Below are positions 42,597 to 63,493 of a stretch of 64,000 nt of DNA, piece after piece. The stretch spans positions 1,371 through 65,370 of the forward strand of contig QZIL01000002.1 in the NCBI GenBank assembly GCA_003599025.1. Direction: 5' to 3'. Within the stretch, counting starts at the first letter, position 1. Every line of letters begins with the position of its first letter. Under the pieces are notes generated by a model. That model did no database searches. It was not told where the DNA came from and saw only the letters and a list, made by a program, of their open reading frames with translations. Source of the stretch: Nitrospiraceae bacterium. GTDB taxonomy: Bacteria > Nitrospirota > Thermodesulfovibrionia > UBA6902. A program made the position numbers and the translations under genes.

Positions 42597-43040
42597 TTAT
42601 TTTACTTCTTCTGTTTCCTTGATCCATGTTTCAATCTTTGCCCTGATCGCGTCTCTTATCTTTCTTGTCTCCCGGAGTTTTTCTTCATGTGTCCCTTTCA
42701 GCGCTGAAGGGTCGGGAAAGCTCCAGTGCAGCCTCTTCGCAAATCCGGGAAAGACTGGGCATTTCTGGCCGCTGGTTTCATCACACACGGTTATAACATA
42801 GTGGAACAGCTTCCCCTGCCTGAGGAAATCAAAAACACTTTTTGCGACATTCCGGGAAATGTCCGTCCCTGTTTCCTTCATGACCTCCACGACAAGGGGG
42901 TTCAGTGCGCCCGGTTCAAGTCCTGCGCTTTCAGCCTCGAACCTGCCGGCCCCGAGGGTGTTTAAAAACACCTCGGCCATCTGGCTGCGCGCGCTGTTAT
43001 GGATGCATACGAAGAGGACTTTCTTTTTGCCCACGATCAA
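42597..43040 (-). CDS. arsC: Arsenate reductase, LMW-PTP (thioredoxin-coupled) type
   Basis: [16 protein letters not shown] is the CX5R P-loop. The distal cysteines lie in [18 protein letters not shown]. Confidence 0.85.
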
Positions 43041-43388: not shown

Positions 43389-44402
43389 TTACAGCTGTTT
43401 TGCAGTGCTGATTTCATCTTTCAGAAGTATCTCCACAGACGCCTTCCCGCGCAGGGACTTTGCGTAGAGATCAGCTTCCTGTTTTGCCTTTTCCTCAACG
43501 AGGGACTGACGTATCTGATCCTTGACGCTGTCATATGCCAGGATGGTTTCCGGCTTTCTTTCGCTGACCTTGAAAATATGAAACCCATATCCGGTCTCTA
43601 CAACATCGCTTGTTTCTCCAGGCTTCAGACTGAAGACAACGGCTTCGAGTTCCTTTTCAAGCTGCCCTGTCCTGACATAGCCTATATCGCCGCCGTCCGT
43701 CCTTGTAGGACCATCCGACTGCTCACGCGCAAGGGCCGCAAAATCCTGCCCGGCCTTCAGCTTCTTCATGATCTGGTCGGCCTTCTTCCTCGCCTCCTGT
43801 TTGCGGGAGTCCTCCAATTTAGGGTCAAGGTGAATGAGGATATGGCTTGCCCTGACCTGAAGCGGCTGCTTGAAGAGGTCCAGACGGCCCTCGTAATAGT
43901 TCATCATTTCGCTGTCAGTGACCGCAACCTTTGCGGCAAAGCGCCGTTCAATAAACTGCTGCACTGCGCTGTTTCTCTCCAGCCTGGCCCGCAATATATC
44001 CTCCGACATATTTTTCCTGCTTAACTGGTTTCTGAACTCCGTCACGCTCGGGAACTGCTGCATCAGCGCATTTATCCCCTTATTGACAGAGTTCTCATCC
44101 GGCTTGATGCCTGCCTTCCGGCTCTCCTGATTGAGGATTTCGAGCCGGACCAGGCTTTCAAGAACATCTACCTGGACGGCTTCGACCTGGCGCGTGGTAA
44201 GAGGCCTTCCAAACTCCAGAAGCGCCCTCTGTATTTTCAGGACCGCTTCATCAAATTCCACCTTTTCAATCGGCGCCCCGTTCACCATGGCCGCTTTATT
44301 GACCGGCTGGGGCTTCGCATCTTCCGCCCTGGCGGGAAAGGACATAACCATGAGACTGACAACCATTAACACGATATGATAAGTTAAGACTCTTCTCAGC
44401 AT
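43389..44402 (-). CDS. Periplasmic SurA/PpiD-like chaperone with parvulin (PpiC) PPIase domain
   Basis: It has a signal peptide and a SurA_N-like helical part, then RASHILIHL...DFAALAREQSDGPTRTDGGDIGYV...GYGFHIFKV, the parvulin rotamase core. Confidence 0.85.
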   Translation of the reverse strand: MLRRVLTYHIVLMVVSLMVMSFPARAEDAKPQPVNKAAMVNGAPIEKVEFDEAVLKIQRALLEFGRPLTTRQVEAVQVDVLESLVRLEILNQESRKAGIKPDENSVNKGINALMQQFPSVTEFRNQLSRKNMSEDILRARLERNSAVQQFIERRFAAKVAVTDSEMMNYYEGRLDLFKQPLQVRASHILIHLDPKLEDSRKQEARKKADQIMKKLKAGQDFAALAREQSDGPTRTDGGDIGYVRTGQLEKELEAVVFSLKPGETSDVVETGYGFHIFKVSERKPETILAYDSVKDQIRQSLVEEKAKQEADLYAKSLRGKASVEILLKDEISTAKQL

Positions 44403-44418
44403 TTTTCTTTACCTCACT

Positions 44419-45105
44419 TTATTTATTAATTTTCTTTTTTTCAATTTCCTCACGGTACTGCTGGAGGAGCTGCTCCAGCTCCACCTTCTTTACCTGTGTC
44501 AGGGGCTCCTTCTCCAGAAGGATTGTCCCCAGTCCCTTGTTCCTGTAATTCGTCACCAGCTCCTCCGCGATAATACCGAGGTCGGCATTATTCGCTTTGC
44601 AGCGGCCCAGGTCCTGCGCCGTCTTTTCCTGTTCAGCCTGAACAGTCTTTTTCTCAGCCGCTGACTTTTTTAACTCTGCCTGAAGCGCCTGCTTTTCTTC
44701 GGCCAGCTTTTTCAACTCACTGTCAAGGTCCTTGTTCTTCCGTCCCGTTTCCCGGGCCTCTTTATCGGCCCTGACAGCCGCCTCTTCCGATGTTTTGACC
44801 CTCAGCTCCAGCCCCTGCATCTGTCCGTTAAGTTTATTTAACTGCGCATCAAGTGTCTGCTTCTCGCTTCCGAGCCTGTCCAGTTCCGCCTGGGCCTGCT
44901 GTTCGGAAACAGACTCCTCATATTTCCCCTCCGCCATCTTTTTTTGCATGAAGGCGACTTTCTTTCCGGCCTCCTTGATCTTTTCATGCGCGGCCTCCCG
45001 CTCCTTATTGACTCTGCTGTTGCCAATGCTCAATCCGATGATCAGGCCGATAATGAGCGCTGCTACGGGGATTATGATTTTTAAAGGCCGGGACATACTG
45101 TTCAT
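44419..45105 (-). CDS. Membrane-anchored coiled-coil protein
   Basis: An N-terminal TM helix (IIIPVAALIIGLIIGLSIG) is followed by about 190 aa of heptad-rich Glu/Lys/Gln sequence. I recognise no family. Confidence 0.6.
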   Translation of the reverse strand: MNSMSRPLKIIIPVAALIIGLIIGLSIGNSRVNKEREAAHEKIKEAGKKVAFMQKKMAEGKYEESVSEQQAQAELDRLGSEKQTLDAQLNKLNGQMQGLELRVKTSEEAAVRADKEARETGRKNKDLDSELKKLAEEKQALQAELKKSAAEKKTVQAEQEKTAQDLGRCKANNADLGIIAEELVTNYRNKGLGTILLEKEPLTQVKKVELEQLLQQYREEIEKKKINK

Positions 45106-45120
45106 TTTTTACCTCCAGAC

Positions 45121-46977
45121 TTAAAATCTTGCATTTAAATCCACCTGCAGCACATCTATCGCCTGCTTAGGGCCGCTTATCTCATCCGCGGTCAGCCATC
45201 GAAGGGTAAGCCAGGCGTTCTTCATCAGGCCATATTCCGCTCCCAGTATCCAGCCCCTGGCATTTGTGCCTCCAAGGTGAAAGTCAGAATCCGTGAAGGC
45301 ATCCACAACTGCGTCGCCCCCCAGGTATTTATAATAGAGATACGCCTTCCAGGACGGGACCCAATCGTCGGGTGTCTCAATAGCGGGGGAATCAACGGAC
45401 ATCCCGAACTGATAGCCTGTAATATCTTTTTCAGGATCTGCTAGCCCGGTAAGATCAGAAACCTCGGATTTATCAAACCCGTAGTTCTTGACAAAATCGC
45501 CGAGGAAAACAACATGAACAGGGTCCCAGAACCCGATATCGAGGGTCCCGGTCAGGTTCATCTCCTTGAACTTTGATGCAAGCCCCACCTTGAAACTGTT
45601 GTTCGGATCAATATAGAACAAGGTGTTTCCCTTTTGCTGATACTGGGGGGCCGACCAGTCGGTGGGTCCGCTTTTATCCAGGGAATTATTGTTTCTCACG
45701 CCGGTGATGTTACTGAATAAATAGTAGGCCGCTCCGACTTTCGCGGATATCCCTTTCTTATGCTTCTTTTCCATCCCGATCTGTCCGCCCGTGAGCCACT
45801 TGGCCTTGGTGGAGAAGTCATCATACTGCAGGGGGAAAGCGCCTTCGGTAAGATAAAATGTCCATGAGTCTGTAATTGGCTTCCGCAAATTCAGGGCAAG
45901 CCCCTCGAAGTTTAAATCGCTGTCCCACACAAGGTCTGATGAAAACCAGGGATTGGGCATCCTTCCGCCATATGCAGTGAAAAGGGTCGGGAGGTAACCA
46001 GGTGACTTCTGATTAAACTTGAGATAGGCCTGCTCCAGGACTATGCCGTCTTTGTTCATATAATCGCCCAGGAGGGTATTGGTTGAAACTGGATTTGACG
46101 AATTCCCTGTAGCGAGACGTAAAGCGGCCTGCAGCTTTTGAGTTCCAAGCGGGTCTTCCGATATGTCCAGCTCAGTTCCGAAGCGGACCCGGTACTTGAA
46201 GCGATACTGGTTCGACCGTGTGTTAATAAGCTCCTGTGTATCAGCGCCCTGAGATATCCTGGTGAACTCATCAAAGTTGTTCTCGTCATACCGGTCATTC
46301 TCATACCGCAGCCGAACATCGCCGCTGAAACGCACGCGCTTGGTCCACTCAGGCGCGGCCGCGGCAAGTTCGGCGACCTTTCCGCCGTACAGCAGCTCCG
46401 CGATCTTCTGTTCAACGTATGACACTTTTTGATTGAGCTCCGCGATCTTTTCTTTCTCCTGTGCAGACGCCTCTTCAGCGGCAGGGACTGCATCTGCCGT
46501 CTTTATTTCCTTCGGCAGCGCCTCCTGCGCTTCGGTCTTCAACTGTTCAGGGATGCTTTTCCTGATCTCCTCGGTGACACTCGCAGTGATCTTCCCGATC
46601 TGTTCCTTCTCACGGTCCTGAAGCTCCCTGGACAACTCCTCCCTGACCTGGGCCATGATCTGTTCCTTGAGCTTTTGCATAAGTTCAGCGGTAACGGCTG
46701 CTGATATCCTGTCGATCATTTCCTGCTCGCTGAGCTGTGAAGCCGCAGGACCACCGTCTTTTTCTCCGGCCGGGGCAGATCCATCCTCCCGGCGCTGCTG
46801 ATCAGACCGGTCCGCTTCACTCCGGGGAGGTGTCTTCTCATGCCTGATCGTCAGCGGCACAGGGGCCGTGGCGCATCCGAAAATAATCGTCAGAAGCAAA
46901 ACCGCGATGCCTTTACTGATATGTCTTCTCAATTCCGTTGATGCTGTAAACACCGTAACTATGTCACTTCTTTTCAT
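45121..46977 (-). CDS. Outer-membrane protein: signal/possible lipobox, Glu-rich coiled-coil N-region, porin-like beta-barrel
   Basis: The N-terminus LLLTIIFGCATAP is a possible lipobox. Roughly residues 90-200 are charged coiled coil. The remainder shows alternating aromatic/Gly beta-strand patterning, and the C-terminal ...VLQVDLNARF is an OMP beta-signal with terminal Phe. Confidence 0.65.
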   Translation of the reverse strand: MKRSDIVTVFTASTELRRHISKGIAVLLLTIIFGCATAPVPLTIRHEKTPPRSEADRSDQQRREDGSAPAGEKDGGPAASQLSEQEMIDRISAAVTAELMQKLKEQIMAQVREELSRELQDREKEQIGKITASVTEEIRKSIPEQLKTEAQEALPKEIKTADAVPAAEEASAQEKEKIAELNQKVSYVEQKIAELLYGGKVAELAAAAPEWTKRVRFSGDVRLRYENDRYDENNFDEFTRISQGADTQELINTRSNQYRFKYRVRFGTELDISEDPLGTQKLQAALRLATGNSSNPVSTNTLLGDYMNKDGIVLEQAYLKFNQKSPGYLPTLFTAYGGRMPNPWFSSDLVWDSDLNFEGLALNLRKPITDSWTFYLTEGAFPLQYDDFSTKAKWLTGGQIGMEKKHKKGISAKVGAAYYLFSNITGVRNNNSLDKSGPTDWSAPQYQQKGNTLFYIDPNNSFKVGLASKFKEMNLTGTLDIGFWDPVHVVFLGDFVKNYGFDKSEVSDLTGLADPEKDITGYQFGMSVDSPAIETPDDWVPSWKAYLYYKYLGGDAVVDAFTDSDFHLGGTNARGWILGAEYGLMKNAWLTLRWLTADEISGPKQAIDVLQVDLNARF

Positions 46978-47083
46978 TATGTTCTCTCATGACCTCTCTT
47001 TCTGGGAAGTAAAACCAAACACTCATTAAGCAGTTTTTTTTAACTTCTGACTTCTCACTTCTTACTTTCCAACTTCTTTGTTG

Positions 47084-47797
47084 TTAGCTCTTAAAAGTCA
47101 TTTTGATCTTCATCGTACGAGGCATGCCGTCAGGCGGCGAATCGCTGAAACTGATATTGCCCAGGACCTGGTTTACCGTCTCATCCATTTTATGGTTCCC
47201 TGATGAGCCTATGATCCTGTGCTCAACGATATCGCCATCCGTGTCCACTTTCAATTTCACAACTACCTGAAGCGTTCCTCTTGGCAGCCCGCCTTCCATG
47301 TCCCAGAGCTTCATGATCCTTTTATGGATCTCACTTTCCACAAAGTGTGCATATCCGCCGTATTTAGACAGGAGAGACAGATTGCCGAGCCCGTTCCCTC
47401 CTTCTCCGGCAAGGAGGCTTCTCCCCCCTTTTTTCGCAACCAGCCCGAAGGCGTCGCTCCCCGCTGTGCCGTCCGAATCCACGCCGAGGCTGTCCCCCGC
47501 AGGCGCGTTGTCCGGCTCACCGGCAGGCCTGTCATTCGAGGCCGCCTCTTGCGGGACCTGAGCAATAACTTCCTCCTTCTGCTCCTGCCTGACCGGCTCA
47601 GGCTCCGGCGGTTTTTCCTTTATCTGCGGCGGGGGCGGCTTCAACAGGGTCACCATGGTAACGTTGTTTTTTTTCTGCGGACTATCGTCAGATATCACCA
47701 TTATTATGAAATAAACTGCAACAACGCACAGAGCGACCATCAGGGCAATGAACCCCCATGAGGCAGCGGACATTTTTTCAGTTTGTCTGTCGGACAT
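47084..47797 (-). CDS. tonB: TonB-family energy transducer
   Basis: It has an N-terminal TM anchor, a Pro-rich spacer (LKPPPPQIKEKPPEPEPV) and a C-terminal TonB_C-like domain (LQVVVKLKVDTDGDIVEHRIIGSSGNHKMDETV). Confidence 0.8.
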   Translation of the reverse strand: MSDRQTEKMSAASWGFIALMVALCVVAVYFIIMVISDDSPQKKNNVTMVTLLKPPPPQIKEKPPEPEPVRQEQKEEVIAQVPQEAASNDRPAGEPDNAPAGDSLGVDSDGTAGSDAFGLVAKKGGRSLLAGEGGNGLGNLSLLSKYGGYAHFVESEIHKRIMKLWDMEGGLPRGTLQVVVKLKVDTDGDIVEHRIIGSSGNHKMDETVNQVLGNISFSDSPPDGMPRTMKIKMTFKS

Positions 47798-47806
47798 ACG
47801 TTCCTC

Positions 47807-48217
47807 CTATTTGACGAGCTTTTGCGTCACGAGCGCAAGCTGGGTAATCTCCAGCCTCTGGAGCAAATCCAGCACCTCTATGACGCCTTTGTACGCTATT
47901 TTTTCATCTCCCCGGATCACCACGGGCAAATTAGGGTCCGCAGCTTTGTATTGGCGGAGCCTGTCTTCCAGTTCTCCCATAGTCACAGGGAAGCTGTCGA
48001 GATACATGGTCCCTTCCGAGGTGATGGTGATCGCCTTTGTCGTGGCCTTGACCTTGCCGGCAGCCGCGCTCGCCTTTGGAAGGTTGACGCTGATCCCCTG
48101 TACGGACGCCGTCACTACGATCATGAACACTAAAAGGAGGTTCCATGCAAGGTCCAGCATGGGAACGACGTTGATCTCATCGTATATCTCATGTTCTTCG
48201 TAGGGGTTATGCCTCAT
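47807..48217 (-). CDS. exbD: ExbD/TolR-family protein
   Basis: From ATG 48217 it reads MRHNPYEEHEIYDEINVVPMLDLAWNLLLVFMIV, the canonical ExbD TM with conserved Asp. This is followed by VNLPKA....ITITSEG..YLD and VVIRGDEKIAYKGVIEVLD. It overlaps the exbB-like gene by 11 nt. Confidence 0.85.
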   Translation of the reverse strand: MRHNPYEEHEIYDEINVVPMLDLAWNLLLVFMIVVTASVQGISVNLPKASAAAGKVKATTKAITITSEGTMYLDSFPVTMGELEDRLRQYKAADPNLPVVIRGDEKIAYKGVIEVLDLLQRLEITQLALVTQKLVK

Positions 48218-50063: not shown

Positions 50064-50066
50064 CTC

Positions 50067-59000: not shown

Positions 59001-60473
59001 CCACGTTCCGGTTTTGTCGTCTTTTTCTTTTCTAAGGGCGCCCCCGATGCTGCGCTCCAGGGCCGTCCTTTCCCCGCTCAGGTACACCTGTGAAAGATCG
59101 CCGATGGCAGTGCCTGAAGTGACAGGGGTTGTGATCTTCATTCCCGGTACGAGACCGCTCTTCTGTCCATAGGCATCGCGGAGCTCGACACTGGTCAGTT
59201 TGAAGTCAGAGAGGATTGATGGAGGAAGATATGCCTCAACGCCGCTTACATCGATACGGCTGCCTGCTTCGAGATATACCCTCTGTCCGGCTTTCAGCAC
59301 GACATTTCCTGCAGGCGCAGTAACGGCCCCCCTCAGCTCGATCGAGCCTGCTGACGTCTCTGAAATACTGCCTTCAGGATCCAGAATATCCAGGCCCTTG
59401 ATGGTCACCTCAGGCTGGATAATAAATGTATCACTGACCGTTTCTGTTGTTGACGGGTTGACCGGAAGGGAGATTTCACTGTTCTTCCCTGTTGTTACTT
59501 TGCCTGCGGCCCTGAGCTCTACCTCTCCTTTGTTGTTCTTGAAGGCGGTCATGGACCGAATCGTCCCCATCTGATCAACAGCTCCTCCGTACATGCCTGC
59601 CAGTCCCCCATCGGCATACAGCCGTCCCCCTTCCTGGTTCACGGAATAGCCGGACCCGGCTTGTTTTACGATGACATAATAAGCCACTCTATTATTGTTA
59701 TGTACCAGATCTGCATCAGTACCCGCAATCAGGCCTATCTGCCCTGCCGGGGTGTTAATCACTCCGGCATTTTCTGTAAAAGGCCCGAGGAGAAAGACCT
59801 GCCCTCCGTCTTTGGCGTTTATCTCTCCATGGTTCGAGACGAAGGCGTTAGGATCAAGCGTTGCCGTGTCGTCAATCTCTTTGCGGTAATTCTCATGTTT
59901 GAATTTGAGGACGTTGCCGATAAAATCCTCATCCTTGATGTTCAAAGCCGAGGCCGCGAGGCTGCCGACGTTGATCCTGGAGCCAGGGCCGAAGAGGATG
60001 CCGTTCTGGTTTATGAGATATATCTTTCCGTCTGCTGTAAGTTTTCCTAAAATGTAGGAAGGGTCCTTGTCCCATATCCGGTTGAGGGCGGCCCAGTCTG
60101 CATTTCCCTTCTGGTCGAAACGGACCTCTGAATCAGCTCCGATATCAAAGGTCTTCCAGTTTATTATGGCCTTTTCTTCGGTCTGGTTAATTGTCATTTT
60201 ATTGCCCTGAATACCCGGCGTTTCCGCGCCCCTCTCAATGTTGTTTAACTCTGGAAGAGCATGCGCCGATGGTCCATTGAACGTCCTCATCCCCCCGGAA
60301 AAGCCGGGGATAGTGACCCCGGGACCTGTTTTATTGGGTAAATTTATATTAGGAGCCGCGGACTTTCCGCTGTATACGCCGGGTTGGGCGGCCAGTACGA
60401 AATCAGGAAGCAGCACAAGGAGGCACAAAATCACCCGGAGCATCTTGTCTATAAAGCCCTTTAACATATTCAT
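50067..60473 (-). CDS. Giant two-partner-secretion exoprotein (TpsA; filamentous haemagglutinin family), 3468 aa
   Basis: After the signal peptide, the N-terminal TPS domain reads NQTEEKAIINWKTFDIGADSEVRFDQ...ALNRI...SYILGKLTADGKIYLINQNGILFGPGSRINVGSLAASAL. About 3000 aa of Gly/Asp/Thr/Ala-rich beta-helix-type sequence follow. The conserved C-terminal region GDITIWSDEGNINAGRGS... is like the C-terminal domain of FHA-family proteins, and the acidic tail is QEEEEE. Confidence 0.9.
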   Translation of the reverse strand: MNMLKGFIDKMLRVILCLLVLLPDFVLAAQPGVYSGKSAAPNINLPNKTGPGVTIPGFSGGMRTFNGPSAHALPELNNIERGAETPGIQGNKMTINQTEEKAIINWKTFDIGADSEVRFDQKGNADWAALNRIWDKDPSYILGKLTADGKIYLINQNGILFGPGSRINVGSLAASALNIKDEDFIGNVLKFKHENYRKEIDDTATLDPNAFVSNHGEINAKDGGQVFLLGPFTENAGVINTPAGQIGLIAGTDADLVHNNNRVAYYVIVKQAGSGYSVNQEGGRLYADGGLAGMYGGAVDQMGTIRSMTAFKNNKGEVELRAAGKVTTGKNSEISLPVNPSTTETVSDTFIIQPEVTIKGLDILDPEGSISETSAGSIELRGAVTAPAGNVVLKAGQRVYLEAGSRIDVSGVEAYLPPSILSDFKLTSVELRDAYGQKSGLVPGMKITTPVTSGTAIGDLSQVYLSGERTALERSIGGALRKEKDDKTGTWKWKSQTGMIDITVNAGDIIIKEGALLDFSGGAARYAEGFINSTKLVSGKKIYDISSAPLNIRYDKTIGQYEKVFERFGTKDSYYGLYYGGASPLQTHVPSQLKGGDAGTLRLKAATVYLDGRLDGSVMRGIHQNLVTTDRGSEEYAISAARGLEAPKAGTFILGDIDTYNEALSSQPSSILILSETSPHSGITPDSSLPEKQPTVLSAKTLNDAKLDTIQLAALETVQTAQGAGITLQPGGAFEIDTRRIEHRGKIKAPAGTIRMLIRENLTSPTDYNGNLKEEGSFVPLQERIVLGQGSMLDVSGERIDNTHAGKAGNTDFRYGLTGGGVIEILDETDLGDGVFIQAGAIADVSGGYSIDPGGKVKGANAGALTIQGSNIMLDGDLRGYALADGSGKISGGSITLTSTEIRVGSEGNDWSGFNAASGGLYKDDLNSGTLLLAGDRFDDTGFTNITLKSYGDIVIDPDIAISTSLVRLNAPVSALQAANVAGAEVPVRPDLLRLSESTAYMAGTSSFKGTAGSDFTGATGYNQGNLRQHDIDVDQAGITVSERASVRTAPGGEITFSGSGKAKTSVTIAGTLEARGGAINLKGEGNSADMIIKSTARILAGGYNRPDPSTTPKGFEVNYQPVKAGSVTLTGYNVTLEEGSIIDISGSERIENRIRAADGSIITFQEAGDPGSLTLNYINAMDWMGDVKTGVNMAGIKRAALAISRQNENNPLVVRAEDIVRYKDLGFDDLTLRSWKSLRFSGPMNVALNRKLTLDAPEIEGPGSNGVTLEAPWIVLANSYYPVTQTPGVSGVTGDALINLKGTWVDVIGTVQFTGFKDVHIEARRDIRLSQASYKLSGKAGEALVKPGKLVTAGDMIFKADRIYPGNFYTYQDTLGTIYPNIYSDYTLHADGKITILPSDTRTGGPIYSAGGNLTVEAGTGIEHRGTLAAPLGTITLTTAVIDEDPYHDDNPLTTAAGSRIYLAGGSVLTTAGDTEVLYDAINSNNIWVTEDKKKPGQFDAADDTNIVTLPFGQETLPQKGIELEADETIVREGAKIDASGGGSFFAYRFLPGIEGTGNPLEKSGRYIVFKDNGFQMPGTSVYLKGGGGLSEGMYTMVPLGPGNAQNARYAFMPGAYILELQAGPSIPGPWLVSKYGYPLVVGYAGVADTTILGTRPQVYSVRSASDVMTEGHFDKQGMIAGNAGDLTVKGNTTIIDGDLNAGPLASIYRGGKISLSGKNISVEQMTGSLLPGGFGYETSFDSTAYLMDLKDKLTIDARGLSNREFREVELGYLNPDTPQDKLNTESIIFESGTYLEAAGISVSARDNITIMEGTSERPTTLYARTEKDKDSGEGVLTLNTPGSLSAGPDSLLHAAHNIIFEVNKVDEIQGALQVDNSAITLKSRAITFTEARKTSNDAGLFLNKKLLQAFSQFEDMTFIAGYSDVATEIRFMDAYDLIAAESITMDAARIIGDNGPGVTLAAPAVTLTNSGDRTDASSTAGHDTEAGIFAVNASEQVTVGSGDILLGGFRTIALNSAGDVVFKGKGSLATGNADLEITAARVTTGAAHEAGGTYQPPDFRVIAGAGKNDLNPANLIRMMRPDNGQAATTGVPGGTLEFAARKIELGTVLQVDGGDIKLTTAGAKGEDGKFLAPSDEDGIILKDGGSIIARGTDDAPGGRVVLATNFIDETGQEQSGKIELQNGSLIDVSAGAQGDAGIITLSAPVGGVMIYGDVKGAAGKKKDKSIGRGGSLVVDTNKFAKEIIEFSTLISKVEEGGFTASLDLRARSGDIDIDNGEMLKAHKIKLTADGGAINVDGIIDASAYEGSYYPDGGTVELYAQDDLNLDGSILAGGINGGEGGYVQLSSSEGDVIVNAEEINVSGSEGGIVYLRARRNDSEGFRDVAISLNHSVTGASALYVEAVRRYGYDGFNFTSALDDAHAHYANAPVERLSNKVDADTTSFHYLPGIEVVSIGDINWNTQWDVSGVRFGGEQEPGVLTLRAGGNLYINNNLVDHPTSLANLPGSAGRDSWAFNLVAGSYTVGAAPLAVVHGKGDLKIADQKVVYTEHAPVRFASGRDTLVGRGQDTPLGFMIDPTMRYNLASPYGDIQGDIGRDLIINGGAIQTATGDIAIDIGRDLQLNTAIVSGLSTLGAIRTTGMLRTDDTTDVDPPYDDPSSKPKPMLADKDNYFNTPNSNTLTYYWRYADGGNITLDVGRHVGTISNGEWTSAMPPATNAWDYFTPILKPGGSTRNNTVLEKYGWFSASYARQSVYTLSSPKEKKQFDTTSGLAAMGGGDLYIRTGSDFLTQAGAFGEGDLAIYAGGNVDGRLLNRMGQGEIHAMGNFGSADKSQQIELFDSRMSVAAEGAMKIGSVLNPSLASDQLNQYYWINCTYTQYTGISLKAGEDLTFAGVSPLYTPTGHDISKFAKILPANVEIKAGGNILLLSDDLTLTSSPDGRLRLDAGVDIVQAVRTASSYSGKAAGITMSDIAPKYWYGLFRVYKDLVSNGGLTWNTERTLYNHHGYFKPEDAVLQALASPLHSGDTREIGISAGRDIRNLGLYAAKKTEIRAGRDILDMTYEGQNISTGDVTMIKAGRDIRMQYEKKSKTGGLIQGGPGVFLVQAGNSIDLGTSNNAVVDQKLIYGGLQAIGNGNNVLLGTEKSTLVVLSGYDQNLPADMIRTFFDDIRDAGDQYAELLSEGKSAEAAELRETTRDATIKPLLGTPSGEGNINMIASQIGTSIGQSDIFVIAAGSMNLGKTALPIAGQKSDDFTGVWTGGGGAINIFTGYDVNVNESRIMTFYGGDITIWSDEGNINAGRGSRTAVSASPARMEEYPAGSGIYRKVFSPPVLGSGIRAVTFDPDGSGPLAMPEPGDIHLTAPSGVIDAGEAGITGGKIILAALEVKNSANISFSAGSVGVPQASTSGAALGGLTGGAGSVAQPGQMAGDATPGIAAERTAQAAQMIDDILMKWLDVKVIDLVQEEEEE

Positions 60474-60490
60474 TGGTCCCTCCAGGCCGA

Positions 60491-62092
60491 TTAAAAAATT
60501 GCCTTTACCAGAAAATGGACTCTCTGGTCGCCGCTCTTTATCCTGTCCGTCGACCTGAGGGCCACTGCCCAGTCCAGTTCGTATTCAATATTCTTTGTTA
60601 TCGAGCCCCGCACTCCTGCCCCCGCCCCCTCTATTTTTGTGCTCTTGTCCTGTCCGGGAAGCGGTGATTTGATGGACATTGCCGCCACGTCATAGAAGAT
60701 ATAGGGGCCCGTCCGGAGCCACTTTCCAATTCCGGTCGTTTCAACAGGGTCAGGGAAAGAGACCTCCAACGTACAATGCACACCGTTGTCTCCTGAGGCT
60801 TCGCTTTCTTTATATCCCCTCACGGTGTCCATGCCGCCTGCCGTATATTGCTCATTGTCGATAAGCGGCTGATCAGACACCTGTCCGTCCACTTTAGCGA
60901 AAAGGACCATTCCGAGCGGCAGCTTCTGTGTCCGCTGGATGCCCAGATTGGCATAGAGGTAATTTGCCCTTGCCTTGAAGCGCTTGTCCTCAAACTCCGT
61001 TTCCCTGGAGCCTAATCCGCGCAGGGACAGGTTAAGTCCCCCGCTGAACTGGGTCGTCCCGCCCAACTCATCAGGCAGTGAAGCGCTGTACGAAAGTGAG
61101 AGCGGCAGATACGAAACGGGGGTCTCCGTTGTCTCTCCGCTTTCTGTTGTGAAACCGACGGCCTGATCGAAATGCTTGTAATCTATGCCGAGTGTCATGT
61201 TATGGTCGTAGAGCTTATATGACGGCAGGGGCATCACATAGCGCGCCCCGAATATCTCCCCCTTGCCTGTCACCTTGAACCCCTCGCCGAACGCGGTGTC
61301 ACTGTCAGACCAGATGCCGTAAAACGCAAGCTGGCGGTCTTTGTCCCATGGCGACGGAAGTACATATGAAGCGCCCAGCACCTGCGCCTCCTTTATCTTC
61401 TGCGGCGATGCCTGGTACTGAAAGGACAGGCTGTGTTCCTTTTGCCAGAGATTGTCATAGCGGACCATGGCGTTCAGCCGCAGTTCAGACGTGTCATGAC
61501 TGGCCCTGTTGTTGAGCTCAAGGGAGCCGTGCAAAGGCAGACGGTCCTCAACTTTCAGCTCTATATCGATGGTCCCCGGTTTCTTTCCGGGGGACATACT
61601 CGGGGTGACCTTGAAATCAGGATTTCTGTTCAGGAAGGCGATATCACTCTGCACGTCCGGCAGATAGATTATCCTTCCCGGCCAGAGGGACTTCAGGTCC
61701 CTCATGACCTTCCCCGATGTAAAATACCGGTTTCCGGTGACCTTCACTTGCCCTATCCGTCCCTCTATTACCTCAAGCTTTACGATGTTGTCCTGCAATG
61801 TCTGTTCCGGGATATTCACGATCACCGAAGGATACCCTGCATTGTGATAGAGCCTCTCAAGGGCGTCCCGCGCCTTTTCTACGTCAGCAACTGTCTTTCC
61901 GGTGCCGGTGAAGGGCATAACGGCGGCCCTCAGCTCAAGCGGGGACAAAAGGCTGTTCCCTGTTATTTCAAAATCCCTGATCATAAATCCTATGTCCTCG
62001 TTGTCCGCAGCCGGGCATTCTTCATGCGCCAGCGCATTGATCACAAAAATAGCAGCCATAAGATAGAAGATGAACGGAGTAATCCTCTTCAT
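60491..62092 (-). CDS. TpsB transporter (ShlB/FhaC/HecB family; POTRA domains plus Omp85-type barrel)
   Basis: POTRA reads IRDFEITGNSLLSPLELRAAVMPFTGTGKTVADVEKARDALERLYHNAGY. A second POTRA follows, then a barrel containing the TAGGMDTVRGY (VRGY/F L6 loop) motif and a terminal Phe (LVKAIF). Confidence 0.9.
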   Translation of the reverse strand: MKRITPFIFYLMAAIFVINALAHEECPAADNEDIGFMIRDFEITGNSLLSPLELRAAVMPFTGTGKTVADVEKARDALERLYHNAGYPSVIVNIPEQTLQDNIVKLEVIEGRIGQVKVTGNRYFTSGKVMRDLKSLWPGRIIYLPDVQSDIAFLNRNPDFKVTPSMSPGKKPGTIDIELKVEDRLPLHGSLELNNRASHDTSELRLNAMVRYDNLWQKEHSLSFQYQASPQKIKEAQVLGASYVLPSPWDKDRQLAFYGIWSDSDTAFGEGFKVTGKGEIFGARYVMPLPSYKLYDHNMTLGIDYKHFDQAVGFTTESGETTETPVSYLPLSLSYSASLPDELGGTTQFSGGLNLSLRGLGSRETEFEDKRFKARANYLYANLGIQRTQKLPLGMVLFAKVDGQVSDQPLIDNEQYTAGGMDTVRGYKESEASGDNGVHCTLEVSFPDPVETTGIGKWLRTGPYIFYDVAAMSIKSPLPGQDKSTKIEGAGAGVRGSITKNIEYELDWAVALRSTDRIKSGDQRVHFLVKAIF

Positions 62093-62098
62093 CTTTCG

Positions 62099-62989
62099 CT
62101 ATTTCCCCATGCCGCTTGCGGCCAGCTTTGCGTGCTCAGCCTTGTCGACCGTCACGTCACAGAACAGTTTTTCCCCTCCGAATGGATGCCTGTAGTTAAT
62201 GGTAATAATTTCGTCAGTTACGTCGGTAATACGGCCTACAAGGGGACCGCTGCGGACCAGGCTGCCTTTGCGGGCTTTGATATCGAGTTTATAATTCTTT
62301 TCATCATGATAAATACGTCCCAGTCCAAAAGGTGTCTGTATCACATCTCCGGGAGTAGCGTTAAAACGGACCGTTACCTTCCCCCCGGTGACAGCGGTAA
62401 CTCTCCCCGGGAATGACGGGTCGATGCTAAATGATTGCCCTACTTCCGGTGACTTGCCGGTCCGGTCCGCGTATTCGTCCACCGGCATTGTCATTACCTT
62501 CGGCCGCGTGCGAACACGCGCCATTCGCAGTATGTAATACTCTTCGTCTTTCGCCGATGACTCCAGGGCAGTGATCTCCAGTTGACGCCGCTCTCCCTCT
62601 TGCATGCCGGCCACCGCTCTGGCAAGCCGTTCCAGGACCGCTTCATCAAAGGGCTCTTCAGGCCTTAATGGGAACGGCTCATCAGGGCGGACCGCTACAA
62701 CCGAGAGGGGGCCGGTCTCTTTTCTCGTGACAAAAATACCGGACTTCGACTGTTCATCGGGGACGCTGCCGGAGGCCGCGACCACTTCTCCGCTTTTCAA
62801 ACGGCATAAATAACTGATTTCAGCCCTGTCCCCGGTCTCAACAATCCCGGCCTTTGCAGTGTCTGAGACATCACCTTGAACATCCTTAGCAGTGTCTGCT
62901 GCCCAACTAAACACGGATTGCGTCAGCAGCAAAGCCGCCGTCAAACTGATCATAGTCCCGCGGGAAAATATCCGGGGATTACCCCTCAT
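62099..62989 (-). CDS. Secreted FKBP-type PPIase, SlyD-like with insert-in-flap domain
   Basis: Start taken at ATG 62989 (GGGGGAGAca-ATG), giving MRGNPRIFSRGTMISLTAALLLTQSVFSWA; the track ORF extends to 63079. GDRAEISYLCRLKSGEVV, VAGMQEGERRQLEI, and INYRHPFGGEKLFCDVTV match FKBP/SlyD (DFNHPLAGKxLxFxV). Confidence 0.7.
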   Translation of the reverse strand: MRGNPRIFSRGTMISLTAALLLTQSVFSWAADTAKDVQGDVSDTAKAGIVETGDRAEISYLCRLKSGEVVAASGSVPDEQSKSGIFVTRKETGPLSVVAVRPDEPFPLRPEEPFDEAVLERLARAVAGMQEGERRQLEITALESSAKDEEYYILRMARVRTRPKVMTMPVDEYADRTGKSPEVGQSFSIDPSFPGRVTAVTGGKVTVRFNATPGDVIQTPFGLGRIYHDEKNYKLDIKARKGSLVRSGPLVGRITDVTDEIITINYRHPFGGEKLFCDVTVDKAEHAKLAASGMGK

Positions 62990-63044
62990 TGTCTCCCCCA
63001 GCGATTGTGTCCGCGCAAAAACCTGTTTTTGATATGCCGATTTT

Positions 63045-63251
63045 TTATAAAGCTCCATGATGCACACCATTCCCTCCATTTTTCTTTATCCCGTTCCCTC
63101 CATGCATGAGCGCCGTCTGTGCGACTTCGACCTCCTCGGATTTTTCTACCCGCCCGAGGCTGCCCTGGGTGAAGTTGATTTTTAGGTACCCGCTGAATTC
63201 CTCATCGGAAAGACTCTTGATTGCATCGGCAAGTCTTTTCATTCTGTCCAT
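63045..63251 (-). CDS. Small protein, YezD/DUF2292-like; first gene of the TPS operon
   Basis: Start at ATG 63251 (ACAGGAGGTttatca-ATG). FSGYLKINFTQGSLGRVEKSEEVEV resembles the DUF2292 pattern (GSVTIxxxxGRVVQIEKTEK). Confidence 0.4.
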   Translation of the reverse strand: MDRMKRLADAIKSLSDEEFSGYLKINFTQGSLGRVEKSEEVEVAQTALMHGGNGIKKNGGNGVHHGAL

Positions 63252-63493
63252 TGATAAACCTCCTGTCATAAGTCAAACCTCGTGATATGAACTTATTGAA
63301 TTACACTTCAATGCCACACATTGGAAAGTAAATGCAACAGAGAATTACAAGTTGATGACTGGTATCGTACCACCCGCTTTGTTAATACATCATTACATGG
63401 TTGTTAAACTTTTATTAAAAGAAAGTAAGGGCGTCGGAGTAAAGATTTTTTCCATTCAGCCGATAATGAATGCCAGGATATGCAACACTATTA

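What the first reader, a model, noticed from the sequence alone, without database searches (positions are those of the whole stretch)
43389..63251. Two-partner secretion system hard-wired to its own ExbB-ExbD-TonB motor, two PPIases and a coiled-coil/beta-barrel pair (20-kb operon)
Ten genes from 63251 down to 43389 are all on the minus strand. Junctions range from an 11-nt overlap to a 55-nt gap, apart from one 107-nt gap at 46978-47083. In order they are:
- a YezD-like 68-aa protein;
- a secreted SlyD/FKBP PPIase;
- TpsB;
- the 3468-aa TpsA;
- a DUF2341-LamG-ExbB fusion;
- ExbD;
- TonB;
- a 618-aa coiled-coil plus beta-barrel OM protein;
- a 228-aa membrane-anchored coiled-coil protein;
- a SurA/parvulin PPIase.
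Classical TPS systems need only TpsA and TpsB, and no energy source at the outer membrane is known for them. ExbBD-TonB normally powers plug-containing TonB-dependent receptors, and none is encoded here. The tpsA stop (50067) lies 3 nt from the exbB-like start (50063), so adjacency is unlikely to be accidental.
Hypothesis: a proton-motive-force-driven step acts in export, anchoring, retraction or release of a giant beta-helical exoprotein. The lectin-like periplasmic domain of the ExbB fusion and the coiled-coil proteins would form an envelope-spanning scaffold, and the two PPIases would act as dedicated periplasmic chaperones. To my knowledge the only precedent for TonB-dependent protein export is the Oar/PopC case in Myxococcus, which is unrelated to TPS.
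Basis: partly seen in the sequence, partly recalled or inferred. Interest (0 to 1): 0.8.

Follow-up and report, generated by a model that had tools for sequence, protein, structure and literature searches.

The report
Two-partner secretion locus with Ton motor
A giant surface-fibre protein and its outer-membrane pore are encoded together with their own proton-driven motor, a stalked porin and folding helpers; the gene set recurs in distant bacteria, including Pseudomonas aeruginosa, where it has been listed since 2009 but never explained, so it could show whether this "energy-free" secretion type sometimes uses energy.

Summary
The ten minus-strand genes are real and their domain content is as described. 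Exceptions: the "YezD-like" label has no support and the FKBP call is weak.

The linkage is not accidental. In samples of 251 Nitrospirota and 300 Gammaproteobacteria genomes, three markers occur together on one contig in 25 genomes:
- the DUF2341-LamG-ExbB fusion;
- the Porin_5 barrel;
- a roughly 3,400-aa DUF3739-type TpsA.

One genome carries a single marker, probably because of a contig break. The rest have none.

The cluster is the strongest GC outlier of its genome, so it was probably acquired horizontally. It is an extra motor: a canonical TonB-ExbB-receptor locus lies on another contig.

It is not unprecedented. It is the counterpart of the P. aeruginosa locus pdtA-pdtB-exbB2-exbD2-tonB4-PA0696-PA0699. 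That association was noted in 2009 and was still called uncharacterised in 2020.

New here:
- the TpsB family has no room for the usual plug helix;
- TpsA ends in a flexible linker and a conserved strand "handle";
- a complex prediction gave weak support for the TonB-like domain binding that tail.

Best reading (about 0.37): the motor grips the periplasm-retained TpsA end. The main rival is nutrient capture with TonB-gated uptake through the porin.

The parts
63045..63269 (-). Small protein of 74 aa (68 aa from the ATG at 63251); family unknown
   Evidence: ORF. No Pfam or NCBIfam hit. A homologue with 54% identity lies upstream of tpsB in L012. The DUF2292/YezD idea is only a sub-threshold lead.
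62099..63079 (-). FKBP-like periplasmic protein (SlyD-type with an insert); likely start at Met31 (62989), followed by a signal peptide
   Evidence: Sub-threshold FKBP26_IF and FKBP_C hits. Match to archaeal FKBP 1ix5 at E 8e-4 in two segments. Conserved at 47-52% identity in the cluster in 5 of 5 Nitrospirota genomes tested, directly beside tpsB in three.
60491..62092 (-). TpsB transporter (Omp85 type, POTRA plus ShlB barrel) with no room for the N-terminal H1 plug helix
   Evidence: ShlB 3e-22 and POTRA_2 7e-15. Residue 29 aligns to residue 47 of CdiB 6wim. Across the family only 6-28 residues lie between the signal peptide and POTRA1. H1 absence is inferred from sequence and was not modelled.
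50067..60473 (-). TpsA exoprotein, 3468 aa: signal peptide, TPS domain, about 2,900 aa with no family match, then DUF3739 terminal rungs
   Evidence: TPS 5e-24, DUF3739 3e-29; TIGR01901 1e-21. Homologues are 3,277-4,142 aa in both phyla.
50070..50267 (-). TpsA C-terminal tail (residues about 3403-3468): Gly/Ala/Ser linker, amphipathic helix, conserved strand motif WLDVKVIDLV, acidic end. Proposed periplasmic handle.
   Evidence: The motif is conserved in both clades (VISVQILGFG and LITVEILGFG in the gamma type) and in a short TpsA of another genus. The AF2 model has confident rungs up to piece residue 155, then pLDDT under 50 for 162-230 with the tail undocked. Weak complex support with the TonB-like protein.
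48207..50063 (-). Motor A subunit: signal/anchor, periplasmic DUF2341 plus LamG, then a TolQ/ExbB-type channel domain (ExbB2 family)
   Evidence: Three Pfam domains in one ORF. TolQ 1.4e-36 scores above ExbB 1.1e-22. Homologues are annotated 'transport protein ExbB2'. The N-terminal part is periplasmic by the established N-out topology of ExbB/TolQ (inference).
47807..48283 (-). Motor B subunit (ExbD/TolR type); likely start at Met23 (48217)
   Evidence: ExbD 8e-26; TolR 4e-23. The transmembrane Asp in the P-[ML]-[LV]-D motif is kept in all 26 homologues examined.
47084..47797 (-). TonB/TolA-like transducer (TonB4 family): N-terminal membrane helix, Pro-rich spacer, conserved AG(S/G)DxFGL linker motif, C-terminal domain
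   Evidence: TonB_2 3e-11, TonB_C 2e-6. Alignment of 21 syntenic homologues. A syntenic gene is present in all gamma loci.
45121..46977 (-). Stalked porin of family Porin_5 (PA0696 type): lipobox, about 180-aa helical periplasmic N-terminal region, beta-barrel from residue about 215, C-terminal Phe
   Evidence: Porin_5 1e-121. AF2 model with confident strands and a low-confidence N-terminus. Foldseek best match is the stalked porin OmpM1 (8bys, E 1e-12), followed by general porins including DcaP. It is the only Porin_5 in the genome.
44419..45105 (-). Inner-membrane-anchored coiled-coil protein, 228 aa (PA0697 position)
   Evidence: N-terminal hydrophobic helix and heptad-rich sequence. Homologous to the 224-aa protein at the same position in P. 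chlororaphis, E 1e-6. Conserved in 14 loci.
43389..44402 (-). Periplasmic parvulin PPIase with a SurA-like N-terminal chaperone domain (PA0699 position)
   Evidence: Rotamase 1e-28, SurA_N_3 5e-13. Conserved at 55-77% identity in Nitrospirota, delta and NC10 loci. A Rotamase gene sits at the same position in Pseudomonas.

Best explanation
WHAT IT IS. One horizontally acquired, operon-like cluster that encodes a conserved multi-part envelope system. It is the Nitrospirota counterpart of the Pseudomonas locus pdtA-pdtB-exbB2-exbD2-tonB4-PA0696-PA0697-PA0699.

PROPOSED WORKING (inferred).
1. The giant TpsA is exported N-terminus first through its TpsB pore. The parvulin and FKBP-like proteins keep it unfolded in the periplasm.
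2. The far C-terminal end stays in the periplasm. It is a flexible linker ending in a helix and a conserved beta-strand handle.
3. The C-terminal domain of the TonB/TolA-like protein grips that handle by strand pairing, as TonB grips a TonB box.
4. The TolQ/ExbB-ExbD-like stator, which carries a ring of periplasmic DUF2341-LamG domains, uses proton-motive force to hold or pull the cell-proximal end of the surface fibre. This would control its anchoring, tension, retraction or release.
5. The stalked porin and the membrane-anchored coiled-coil protein form the outer-to-inner-membrane scaffold, or the conduit, beside it.

SHOWN: gene content, cross-phylum co-occurrence, paralogy to a housekeeping Ton set, a conserved stator Asp and a conserved TpsA tail motif.

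INFERRED: every physical contact and any use of energy.
For: 1. Identity and synteny with the Pseudomonas locus. P. chlororaphis has TpsA, TpsB, DUF2341-LamG-ExbB, ExbD, TonB_2, Porin_5, a 224-aa protein, YbjN, Rotamase, LysR and AraC. This is the same order as the PAO1 description (PMC7035377).

2. All-or-none co-occurrence.
- In 251 Nitrospirota genomes the same 9 carry the full-length fusion, a strong Porin_5 (E below 1e-109) and DUF3739 in a 3,394-3,594-aa frame, all on one contig.
- In 300 Gammaproteobacteria the same 16 carry the fusion and Porin_5, and all 16 are among the 17 with DUF3739.
- Every locus with enough flank shows tpsA or tpsB next to the motor, except the NC10 locus.

3. 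It is a dedicated extra motor. A canonical TonB, ExbB and plug receptor lie on contig C16, and three more plug receptors lie elsewhere.

4. The stator looks functional. The ExbD transmembrane Asp is kept in all 26 homologues.

5. The TpsA tail.
- The strand motif after a low-complexity linker is conserved in both clades.
- It also occurs in a 1,435-aa TpsA that sits directly upstream of a plain ExbB-ExbD-TonB set in another genus.
- In the AF2 model the tail does not dock on the beta-helix.

6. Complex prediction, TpsA tail against TonB-like residues 100-237: weak support.
- Score 0.32, best of 3 controls 0.01.
- The runs agree in at least 63% of contacts; partner pLDDT is at least 41.
- The mark was reached by 58 of 80 solved complexes and 2 of 110 mismatched pairs.
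- At 0.60 or under it was reached by only 7 of those 80 solved complexes and by both mismatches that passed. Such a pass is more often wrong than right unless the guess was likely beforehand.
- My own alignments were used, so these counts hold only roughly.

7. The TpsB family has no room for the H1 plug helix. The pore may therefore stay occupied by TpsA.

8. Established knowledge: the C-terminal parts of FhaB and CdiA stay in the periplasm during or after secretion (my knowledge; titles).
Against: - No experiment on any member links the motor to TpsA. In P. aeruginosa, single mutants in tpsA, tpsB, PA0695 and PA0696 did not change VreI-induced zebrafish lethality, and secretion was not reported for the motor mutants (PMC2729926).
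- The complex score is in the weak band.
- An NC10 genome has the motor, porin, coiled-coil protein and parvulin with no TPS or DUF3739 found. Its completeness is unknown.
- The TpsA next to the cluster in P. chlororaphis is CdiA-like (DUF637) and lacks DUF3739. The handle is therefore not universal at that position.
- tonB is almost always followed directly by the porin gene, which fits the porin as TonB's partner at least as well.
- Pulling inward on a C-terminus does not obviously help export.
- H1 absence and the periplasmic location of the tail are inferred, not shown.
Confidence: 0.37

Rival explanations
1. Nutrient capture and gated uptake, like HxuABC. The TpsA fibre binds or processes an external, possibly phosphorus-containing, substrate. 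The TonB-like protein energises or gates uptake through the Porin_5 channel by acting on its periplasmic N-terminal stalk. TPS export itself needs no energy.
For: - tonB is followed directly by the Porin_5 gene in nearly all loci.
- The motor-porin module occurs without any TPS in one NC10 genome.
- The Pseudomonas locus belongs to the PhoB/VreI phosphate-starvation regulon, next to an alkaline phosphatase and its secretion system (PMC2729926; PMC7035377).
- A simpler TPS-ExbB-ExbD-TonB locus in another Nitrospirota genus carries a PstS-like protein and a Porin_O_P porin.
- A homologous PstS-like protein (E 9e-22) lies about 4 kb beyond this cluster.
- HxuA/HxuB/HxuC is an accepted case of a TPS pair working with a TonB-dependent importer (PMC5422565).
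Against: - Porin_5 has no plug domain and no TonB box shared by both clades. The PxPVTI(K/R)HE motif after the lipid Cys is restricted to the Nitrospirota type.
- Its fold resembles passive general porins.
- The porin family is replaceable (Porin_O_P in the simpler locus), while the tpsA-exbB adjacency persists.
- The PstS-like hit is far below the family cut-off (51.8 against 206.6 bits) and sits in an exosortase/PEP-CTERM neighbourhood.
- No phosphate gene lies inside the window's cluster.
Confidence: 0.25
2. Tol-Pal-like envelope tether. The TolQR-like stator, TolA-like protein, stalked porin and coiled-coil protein form an energised link between inner membrane, wall and outer membrane. This link stabilises or locally remodels the envelope where a giant fibre is mounted, without touching TpsA directly.
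For: - The motor scores better to TolQ (1.4e-36) and TolR (4e-23) than to ExbB and ExbD models.
- The best structural match of the barrel is OmpM1, an outer-membrane attachment porin with a stalk.
- The 228-aa protein is a membrane-anchored coiled coil long enough to span much of the periplasm.
Against: - No peptidoglycan-binding domain (SLH, OmpA, Pal or TolB type) was detected in any of the ten proteins.
- A general envelope role does not explain the near-perfect co-occurrence with one TpsA type.
- It also does not explain the two chaperones.
Confidence: 0.13
3. Energised export. The motor opens or drives the TpsB pore, so translocation of the 3,468-aa TpsA itself needs proton-motive force.
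For: - TpsB lacks the usual H1 plug region, so its gating may differ from FhaC.
- tpsA and the exbB-like gene are 3 nt apart.
- The TPS review states that no energy source is known for type V secretion and that what drives it is an open question (PMC5422565).
Against: - TonB-type machines pull towards the cell, which is the wrong direction for export.
- FhaB, of similar size, is secreted without such a motor (established knowledge).
- TpsB has no N-terminal extension that could carry a TonB box.
- No data bear on this.
Confidence: 0.1
4. Signal relay. The TPS pair, the porin and the TonB-like system act as the outer-membrane sensor of a cell-surface signalling pathway, with energy used for signalling as in FecA-FecR.
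For: - In Proteobacteria the cluster is tied to the VreA-VreI-VreR pathway. VreA has a receptor-type signalling domain plus a TonB-like domain (PMC2729926).
- An STN plus TonB_C protein and a FecR-like protein lie between tpsA and tpsB in Alcanivorax.
Against: - No ECF sigma, FecR or STN gene occurs in the window's cluster, or in the Nitrospirota, delta or NC10 loci examined.
- Signalling therefore cannot be the conserved core function.
Confidence: 0.06
5. Co-location without functional coupling: two unrelated systems that travel together on a mobile island.
For: The cluster is a compositional island: GC 53.4% against 45.9% for the genome.
Against: - The same partners co-occur in two distant groups with rearranged gene order (tpsA...tpsB-exbB in the gamma type; tpsB-tpsA-exbB here). 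They are absent together from about 525 other genomes.
- They are co-induced in P. aeruginosa.
Confidence: 0.04

Closest known systems
Pseudomonas aeruginosa pdtA(PA0690)-phdA-pdtB(PA0692)-exbB2-exbD2-tonB4(PA0695)-PA0696-PA0697-PA0698-PA0699 locus (VreI/PhoB regulon)
   Same: It shares the TpsA, TpsB, DUF2341-LamG-ExbB fusion, ExbD, TonB-like protein, Porin_5 porin, a coiled-coil protein of about 225 aa and a PpiC/parvulin PPIase, with the motor-to-PPIase part in the same order. This was verified by sequence in P. chlororaphis and matched to the PAO1 gene list. Function is unknown in both.
   Different: - The window's cluster has no YbjN gene, no transposase-like phdA gene and no VreAIR, LysR or AraC regulators.
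- It adds an FKBP-like protein and a small protein at the 5' end.
- Gene order is tpsB-tpsA-exbB rather than tpsA-x-tpsB-exbB.
- The host is an uncultured anaerobe-type Nitrospirota MAG.
- Phosphate control is not shown here.
- I could not read PAO1 itself; the link rests on a P. chlororaphis locus and on published gene descriptions.
HxuA/HxuB/HxuC of Haemophilus influenzae
   Same: A TPS pair encoded with, and working with, a TonB-energised outer-membrane step (PMC5422565).
   Different: HxuC is a plug-containing TonB-dependent receptor that uses the housekeeping TonB. Here there is no plug receptor, but a private ExbB/ExbD/TonB set and a porin-like barrel.
Oar/PopC of Myxococcus xanthus
   Same: A TonB system required for protein passage outward across the outer membrane (PMC6434023).
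   Different: Oar is a plug-type TonB-dependent transporter and PopC is not a TPS substrate. No sequence relation was found.
Classical TPS systems FhaB/FhaC and CdiA/CdiB
   Same: A TPS domain, a beta-helical giant exoprotein and an Omp85-type TpsB with POTRA domains. Periplasmic retention of the C-terminal part is established for FhaB and CdiA (my knowledge).
   Different: - Here TpsB has no room for the H1 plug helix.
- TpsA has a DUF3739 end with a tail motif instead of a prodomain or toxin.
- The classical systems are not known to have a dedicated motor.
Tol-Pal system, and the stalked porins OmpM1 (Veillonella) and DcaP (Acinetobacter)
   Same: The stator is TolQ/TolR-like by HMM score. 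The barrel is structurally nearest to a porin with a periplasmic stalk.
   Different: No TolB, Pal or SLH domain is present. TM-scores are moderate (0.67 by target). The oligomeric state is unknown.

Membership tests
Two-partner secretion (type Vb) | Exoprotein with an N-terminal TPS domain after a signal peptide | tested here: met
   PF05860 5e-24 at residues 89-305; TIGR01901 1e-21.
Two-partner secretion (type Vb) | Adjacent Omp85-type TpsB with POTRA domains and a ShlB-type barrel | tested here: met
   PF03865 3e-22 and PF08479 7e-15; 17 nt from tpsA.
Two-partner secretion (type Vb) | N-terminal H1 helix that plugs the TpsB barrel (present in the solved FhaC and CdiB structures) | tested here: not met
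   About 13 residues lie between the predicted signal cleavage site and POTRA1. Query residue 29 aligns to CdiB residue 47. The same holds in 8 homologues. This is sequence-based only; no model was made. H1 is typical of the family rather than required for membership.
Two-partner secretion (type Vb) | TpsB-dependent secretion of TpsA | not testable with these tools
   This needs an experiment. PdtA/PdtB is described as functional in P. aeruginosa (cited in PMC7035377).
Ton system (ExbB-ExbD-TonB plus TonB-dependent transporter) | ExbB/TolQ-type channel protein and ExbD/TolR-type protein with the transmembrane Asp | tested here: met
   PF01618 9e-25 and PF02472 8e-26. The Asp is kept in all 26 homologues.
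Ton system (ExbB-ExbD-TonB plus TonB-dependent transporter) | TonB with a membrane anchor, a Pro-rich spacer and a C-terminal domain | tested here: met
   PF13103 3e-11 and PF03544 2e-6; the sequence shows the anchor and a PPPPQIKEKPPEPEP spacer.
Ton system (ExbB-ExbD-TonB plus TonB-dependent transporter) | A plug-containing outer-membrane transporter with a TonB box as the client | tested here: not met
   No Plug or TonB_dep_Rec domain occurs in the cluster or in the related loci examined. Four plug proteins lie elsewhere in the genome, one beside the canonical TonB/ExbB. The cluster works like a Ton/Tol motor but is not a classical Ton uptake system.
Tol-Pal system | TolB and Pal (or another wall-binding partner) encoded with TolQRA | tested here: not met
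   No TolB, Pal, OmpA-like or SLH domain was found in the ten proteins. TolQ and TolR scores are far below the equivalog cut-offs (126 against 221 bits; 82 against 127 bits).
PdtAB-ExbB2D2-TonB4-PA0696 cluster family (Pseudomonas type) | DUF2341-LamG-ExbB fusion, ExbD, TonB-like protein, Porin_5, coiled-coil protein and PpiC PPIase in one direction, next to a TPS pair | tested here: met
   Window domains. P. chlororaphis locus. Homology of the coiled-coil proteins, E 1e-6. Homologues are named ExbB2. Published PAO1 gene list.
PdtAB-ExbB2D2-TonB4-PA0696 cluster family (Pseudomonas type) | Control by VreI/PhoB under phosphate limitation | not testable with these tools
   No sigma, anti-sigma or VreA gene is in the window's cluster. 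No RNA data are available.
FKBP-type PPIase (SlyD-like) | An FKBP domain above the family threshold | tested here: inconclusive
   FKBP_C 17.4 bits against a cut-off of 21.1; FKBP26_IF 18.9 against 27. 1ix5 at E 8e-4 with both halves aligned.
YezD/DUF2292 | A match to PF10055 | tested here: not met
   No hit at E up to 10. The only trace is an Atlas lead at 0.82 and TM 0.53.

The most novel reading that the evidence does not exclude
TpsA and TpsB work with the private stator as a split TonB-dependent machine. The C-terminal strand of TpsA is a TonB box, and the segment of TpsA that sits in the H1-less TpsB pore is the plug. Proton-motive force reels in, tensions or gates a type Vb exoprotein. 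This would be the first energised type V secretion system, and it would be present from Nitrospirota to Pseudomonas.
Probability: 0.22. Interest if true: 0.85.

Novelty: new member of a known kind. Interest (0 to 1): 0.55.

Why it matters
Type V secretion, including the two-partner pathway, is taught as needing no energy source at the outer membrane. What drives and controls it is an acknowledged open question (PMC5422565).

This gene set pairs a TPS system with its own proton-driven motor, and it does so consistently in bacteria as far apart as Nitrospirota, Desulfobacterota and Gammaproteobacteria. Carriers include the opportunistic pathogens P. aeruginosa and S. maltophilia.

The P. aeruginosa copy has sat in the phosphate-starvation virulence regulon since 2009 with its motor and downstream genes unexplained. 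This analysis does three things:
- It turns a single-species curiosity into a defined cross-phylum module with a sharp phyletic signature.
- It names its parts: a crowned stator, a stalked porin, a coiled-coil anchor, chaperones and an H1-less TpsB.
- It offers a concrete, cheap test: does the TonB-like domain bind the conserved TpsA tail?

It also gives a first functional context for the DUF2341 appendage on MotA/ExbB-family stators. A 2025 survey listed that appendage as unexplained (PMC12505986).

Tried and rejected
- Literature searches for DUF2341, DUF3739/Porin_5, TPS plus ExbB/TonB, S. maltophilia FhaB and tonB4/exbB2 found no paper that tests the motor's role. The XacFhaB paper mentions no Ton genes.
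- Promoter and terminator scans inside the cluster found no more sites than in shuffled sequence. There was none in the 106-nt tonB-porin gap, so this says nothing either way.
- Expression: no RNA holder was listed for window 46800-50300.
- Sequence search of solved structures found nothing for Porin_5 and nothing meaningful for the TpsA C-terminal 477 aa or for the TonB-like protein.
- A universal TonB box in the Porin_5 N-terminus was rejected. The PxPVTI(K/R)HE motif is limited to lipoprotein-type homologues, and the SHOCT-like LLxLLxxKxVIS motif is missing from the window's own protein.
- P. aeruginosa itself could not be fetched. The first homologue search listed only close relatives. The second reached other Pseudomonas species. 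The P. chlororaphis genome is not held for whole-genome search.
- Rank correlations of identity across components were high (0.54-0.96) for all pairs that exclude the parvulin gene. They are dominated by one deep split among related genomes, so I do not use them as evidence.
- A phosphate link through the PstS-like neighbour is kept only as a lead. The score is far below the family cut-off, and no copy was found in the other fetched loci, whose flanks may be too short.
One Pfam call failed on a frame error and was corrected.

Full report

Read from those coordinates, the junctions are 3 to 17 nt. The exceptions are a 106-nt gap between the tonB-like and porin genes, and the overlaps or gaps that depend on start-codon choice for the small, FKBP-like and exbD genes.

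Pfam and NCBIfam confirm the following:
- a TpsB (ShlB plus POTRA_2);
- a 3,468-aa TpsA with an N-terminal TPS domain and a C-terminal DUF3739;
- one 618-aa protein that joins DUF2341, a LamG-type domain and a MotA/TolQ/ExbB channel domain;
- an ExbD/TolR protein;
- a TonB-type protein;
- a Porin_5 barrel (E 1e-121);
- a 228-aa coiled-coil protein with an N-terminal membrane helix;
- a parvulin PPIase with a SurA-like N-terminal domain.

No plug or TonB-dependent receptor domain is present.

Two labels are weaker than stated. The small protein has no family hit at all. The FKBP-like protein reaches only sub-threshold scores, although both halves of a SlyD-type FKBP align.

2. THE LINKAGE IS CONSERVED AND SHARPLY CO-DISTRIBUTED

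A scan of species-representative genomes with the fusion protein returned 43 loci. Of these, 26 match most of the fusion, motor domain included.

Every one of the 26 with enough flank, bar the NC10 locus, shows a TpsA and/or TpsB next to the fusion, followed by ExbD, a TonB-like gene and Porin_5. Most also carry the coiled-coil gene, and the Nitrospirota, delta and NC10 loci carry the parvulin gene.

Hosts include Thermodesulfovibrionia and other Nitrospirota, Smithella, Desulfobacterales, an NC10 bacterium, Burkholderiales, Thiotrichaceae, Oleiphilus, Alcanivorax, Lysobacterales and Stenotrophomonas maltophilia.

I then asked the reverse question in two samples.
- Among 251 Nitrospirota genomes, the full-length fusion, a strong Porin_5 hit and DUF3739 inside a 3,394-3,594-aa frame are found in exactly the same nine genomes, always on one contig.
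- Among 300 Gammaproteobacteria, the same 16 genomes hold the fusion and Porin_5. All 16 are among the 17 with DUF3739.
- The seventeenth has its TpsA starting at base 538 of a contig with DUF3739 near base 10,600, so a contig break is likely.

Related genomes are not independent, so I give counts rather than a test. The gene order differs between the groups (tpsB-tpsA-exbB here; tpsA...tpsB-exbB in the gamma type). This argues for selection on co-presence rather than frozen synteny.

3. IT IS AN EXTRA, IMPORTED MOTOR

The MAG is 70% complete. It has a canonical TonB, an ExbB and a plug receptor together on contig C16, three more plug receptors, and TolQ/MotA-type genes on C40. The cluster's set is therefore a paralogous, dedicated one.

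The cluster has 53.4% GC against 45.9% for the genome. That is higher than any of the 251 20-kb windows sampled across the genome. The two same-family genomes in the sample lack it. Its proteins are as similar to delta and NC10 copies as to other Nitrospirota copies.

Horizontal acquisition is the simplest reading.

4. IT IS NOT UNPRECEDENTED

In Alcanivorax, a protein with a receptor-type signalling domain plus a TonB-like domain, and a FecR-like protein, lie between tpsA and tpsB. That is the signature of the P. aeruginosa VreA-VreI-VreR pathway.

Llamas et al. 2009 (PMC2729926) listed the VreI regulon as follows:
- PA0690 (tpsA);
- PA0691;
- PA0692 (tpsB);
- exbB2;
- exbD2;
- the tonB homologue PA0695;
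- PA0696-PA0698;
- the PpiC-type PPIase PA0699.

Otero-Asman et al. 2020 (PMC7035377) still call exbB2-exbD2-tonB4 an uncharacterised putative TonB system and PA0696-PA0700 of unknown function.

I confirmed the equivalence by sequence. Gamma-type fusions are annotated ExbB2 or DUF2341 protein in many Pseudomonas, Achromobacter, Bordetella and Alcaligenes species.

The P. chlororaphis locus reads TpsA, TpsB, DUF2341-LamG-ExbB, ExbD, TonB_2, Porin_5, a 224-aa protein, YbjN, Rotamase, LysR and AraC. This matches the PAO1 list gene for gene. The 224-aa protein is homologous to the window's coiled-coil protein (E 1e-6).

I could not fetch PAO1 itself.

A 2025 survey of MotA-family stators lists the DUF2341 appendage as unexplained (PMC12505986). 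I found no paper that tests the motor's role.

5. WHAT THE PARTS LOOK LIKE

Stator.
- It scores better to TolQ/TolR than to ExbB/ExbD models.
- It keeps the transmembrane Asp of the B subunit in all 26 homologues.
- By the established N-out topology of ExbB/TolQ, the 350-aa DUF2341-LamG part is periplasmic. A pentameric stator would carry five of them.

Porin_5 protein.
- It has a lipobox and a helical, poorly predicted N-terminal region of about 180 aa.
- It has a confidently predicted barrel.
- The best structural match of the barrel is the stalked attachment porin OmpM1, followed by general porins including DcaP.

TpsB.
- It has about 13 residues between signal peptide and POTRA1, and homologues have 6-28.
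- That leaves no room for the H1 plug helix and linker of FhaC and CdiB. This is inferred from sequence.

TpsA.
- It ends with beta-helix rungs (DUF3739) and then a Gly/Ala/Ser linker.
- After the linker come a helix and a strand motif conserved in both clades: WLDVKVIDFV, or VISVQILGFG/LITVEILGFG in the gamma type.
- In an AF2 model the rungs are confident and the last 70 residues are not docked on them.

A second kind of locus in another Nitrospirota genus has TpsB, a 1,435-aa TpsA with half a DUF3739 and a similar terminal strand, then a plain ExbB, ExbD and TonB, then PEP-CTERM proteins, a PstS-like protein and a Porin_O_P porin. The tpsA-to-exbB adjacency thus outlives both the fusion and the porin family.

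6. MECHANISM

The one complex job tested the TpsA tail against the TonB-like linker and C-domain. It returned weak support:
- score 0.32, best of 3 controls 0.01;
- runs agreeing in at least 63% of contacts;
- partner pLDDT at least 41.

The mark was reached by 58 of 80 solved complexes and 2 of 110 mismatches. In the band at or under 0.60 it was reached by only 7 of the 80, and by both mismatches that passed. My own alignments were used, so the counts hold only roughly.

It is established that FhaB and CdiA keep their C-terminal parts in the periplasm. Taking that together with the prediction, I favour this model: the TonB-like protein grips the TpsA tail, and the stator holds or pulls the cell-proximal end of the fibre. 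The stalked porin and coiled-coil protein would act as scaffold, and the parvulin and FKBP-like proteins as chaperones. A parvulin chaperone for FHA, Par27, is known in Bordetella (my knowledge). I put this model at about 0.37.

The main rival, at 0.25, is HxuABC-like capture and TonB-gated uptake through the porin. Points in its favour:
- the constant tonB-porin adjacency;
- an NC10 genome with the motor-porin module but no TPS;
- the phosphate-starvation control in Pseudomonas;
- the PstS-like neighbours.

A Tol-like tether, energised export proper, signalling and mere co-location follow with lower weights.

Against my model: the P. chlororaphis TpsA beside the cluster is CdiA-like and lacks DUF3739.

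7. VERDICT

The finding is real and is a member of a recognisable cross-phylum system. The claim of no precedent is not.

The kind has been known as a gene association in P. aeruginosa since 2009, so I rate this a new member of a known kind, with variant accessories in a new phylum. Interest stays moderate to high because the mechanism is open, testable in culturable carriers, and bears on whether type V secretion is always energy-free.

Noticed in passing
window 43389-63269 (continues beyond 64000): The cluster is a compositional island: 53.4% GC against 45.9% for the genome, above every one of 251 20-kb windows sampled. GC stays at 0.49-0.53 for at least 16 kb beyond the window.
   Followed up: partly
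window 63639-64000 (+), continuing to G000:C2:65009-66064 (L052:210-1268): A 352-aa subtilase (mycosin-like by NCBIfam, 4e-66) is divergently transcribed from the cluster. FhaB is matured by a subtilisin-type protease in Bordetella (my knowledge), so it could process TpsA. A second subtilase lies at L052:11824-13275.
   Followed up: partly
L052:3024-5078 (G000:C2:67823-69877, outside the window) and L051:10668-12812: A VPLPA/PEP-CTERM protein followed by a 430-aa PstS-like protein lies about 4 kb beyond the cluster. A homologous pair (PstS-like proteins E 9e-22) sits inside the simpler TPS-ExbB-ExbD-TonB locus of another Nitrospirota genus. This may be a phosphate theme or only a shared exosortase neighbourhood.
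   Followed up: partly
L051 (G240:C7:6000-24000); also G234:C43: A second kind of TPS-plus-motor locus: TpsB (630 aa), TpsA (1,435 aa, half a DUF3739), plain ExbB (259 aa), ExbD, TonB, three PEP-CTERM proteins, a PstS-like protein and a Porin_O_P porin.
   Followed up: partly
L017 (NC10 MAG, CAVQPC010000053.1): The fusion, ExbD, TonB-like, Porin_5, coiled-coil and parvulin genes are present with unrelated metabolic genes upstream. No TPS or DUF3739 domain was found anywhere in that genome.
   Followed up: yes
L050:1-4412 (P. chlororaphis): The TpsA next to the cluster is 4,552 aa, has a DUF637 (CdiA-type) region and no DUF3739, and is followed by small ORFs typical of immunity or orphan modules. 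The motor cluster can therefore sit beside a contact-dependent-inhibition-type TpsA.
   Followed up: partly
L012:13343-16892: In one Nitrospiraceae genome, a pro-kumamolisin-type peptidase (815 aa) and an exosortase-like protein are inserted between the tonB-like and Porin_5 genes.
   Followed up: no
window 46800-46977 (Porin_5 N-terminus) and alignment A1: Lipoprotein-type Porin_5 homologues share a PxPVTI(K/R)HE motif right after the lipid Cys. Many homologues, but not the window's, carry one or two SHOCT-like LLxLLxxKxVISxEEA motifs in the stalk.
   Followed up: partly
window 47400-47470 (TonB-like linker) and alignment A2: A linker motif AG(S/G)DxFGL, with invariant Asp and Phe, is conserved from Nitrospirota to Stenotrophomonas and Pseudomonas. 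It is not a feature I know from classical TonB.
   Followed up: no
G000:C34:277-513, C34:19072-19302, C87:11433-11663, C7:30631-30867, C7:35458-35715: Five more DUF2341 matches lie in open frames of 1,330 to 3,339 aa; the two on C7 share one 3,058-aa frame. These giant proteins look like further surface proteins.
   Followed up: no
L052:6191-7441: A group II intron reverse transcriptase/maturase lies about 7 kb beyond the cluster, in keeping with a mobile region.
   Followed up: no
window 42597-43040 (-): A low-molecular-weight phosphotyrosine phosphatase/ArsC-type gene lies 349 nt downstream of the parvulin gene on the same strand. It was not found conserved in the related loci.
   Followed up: no
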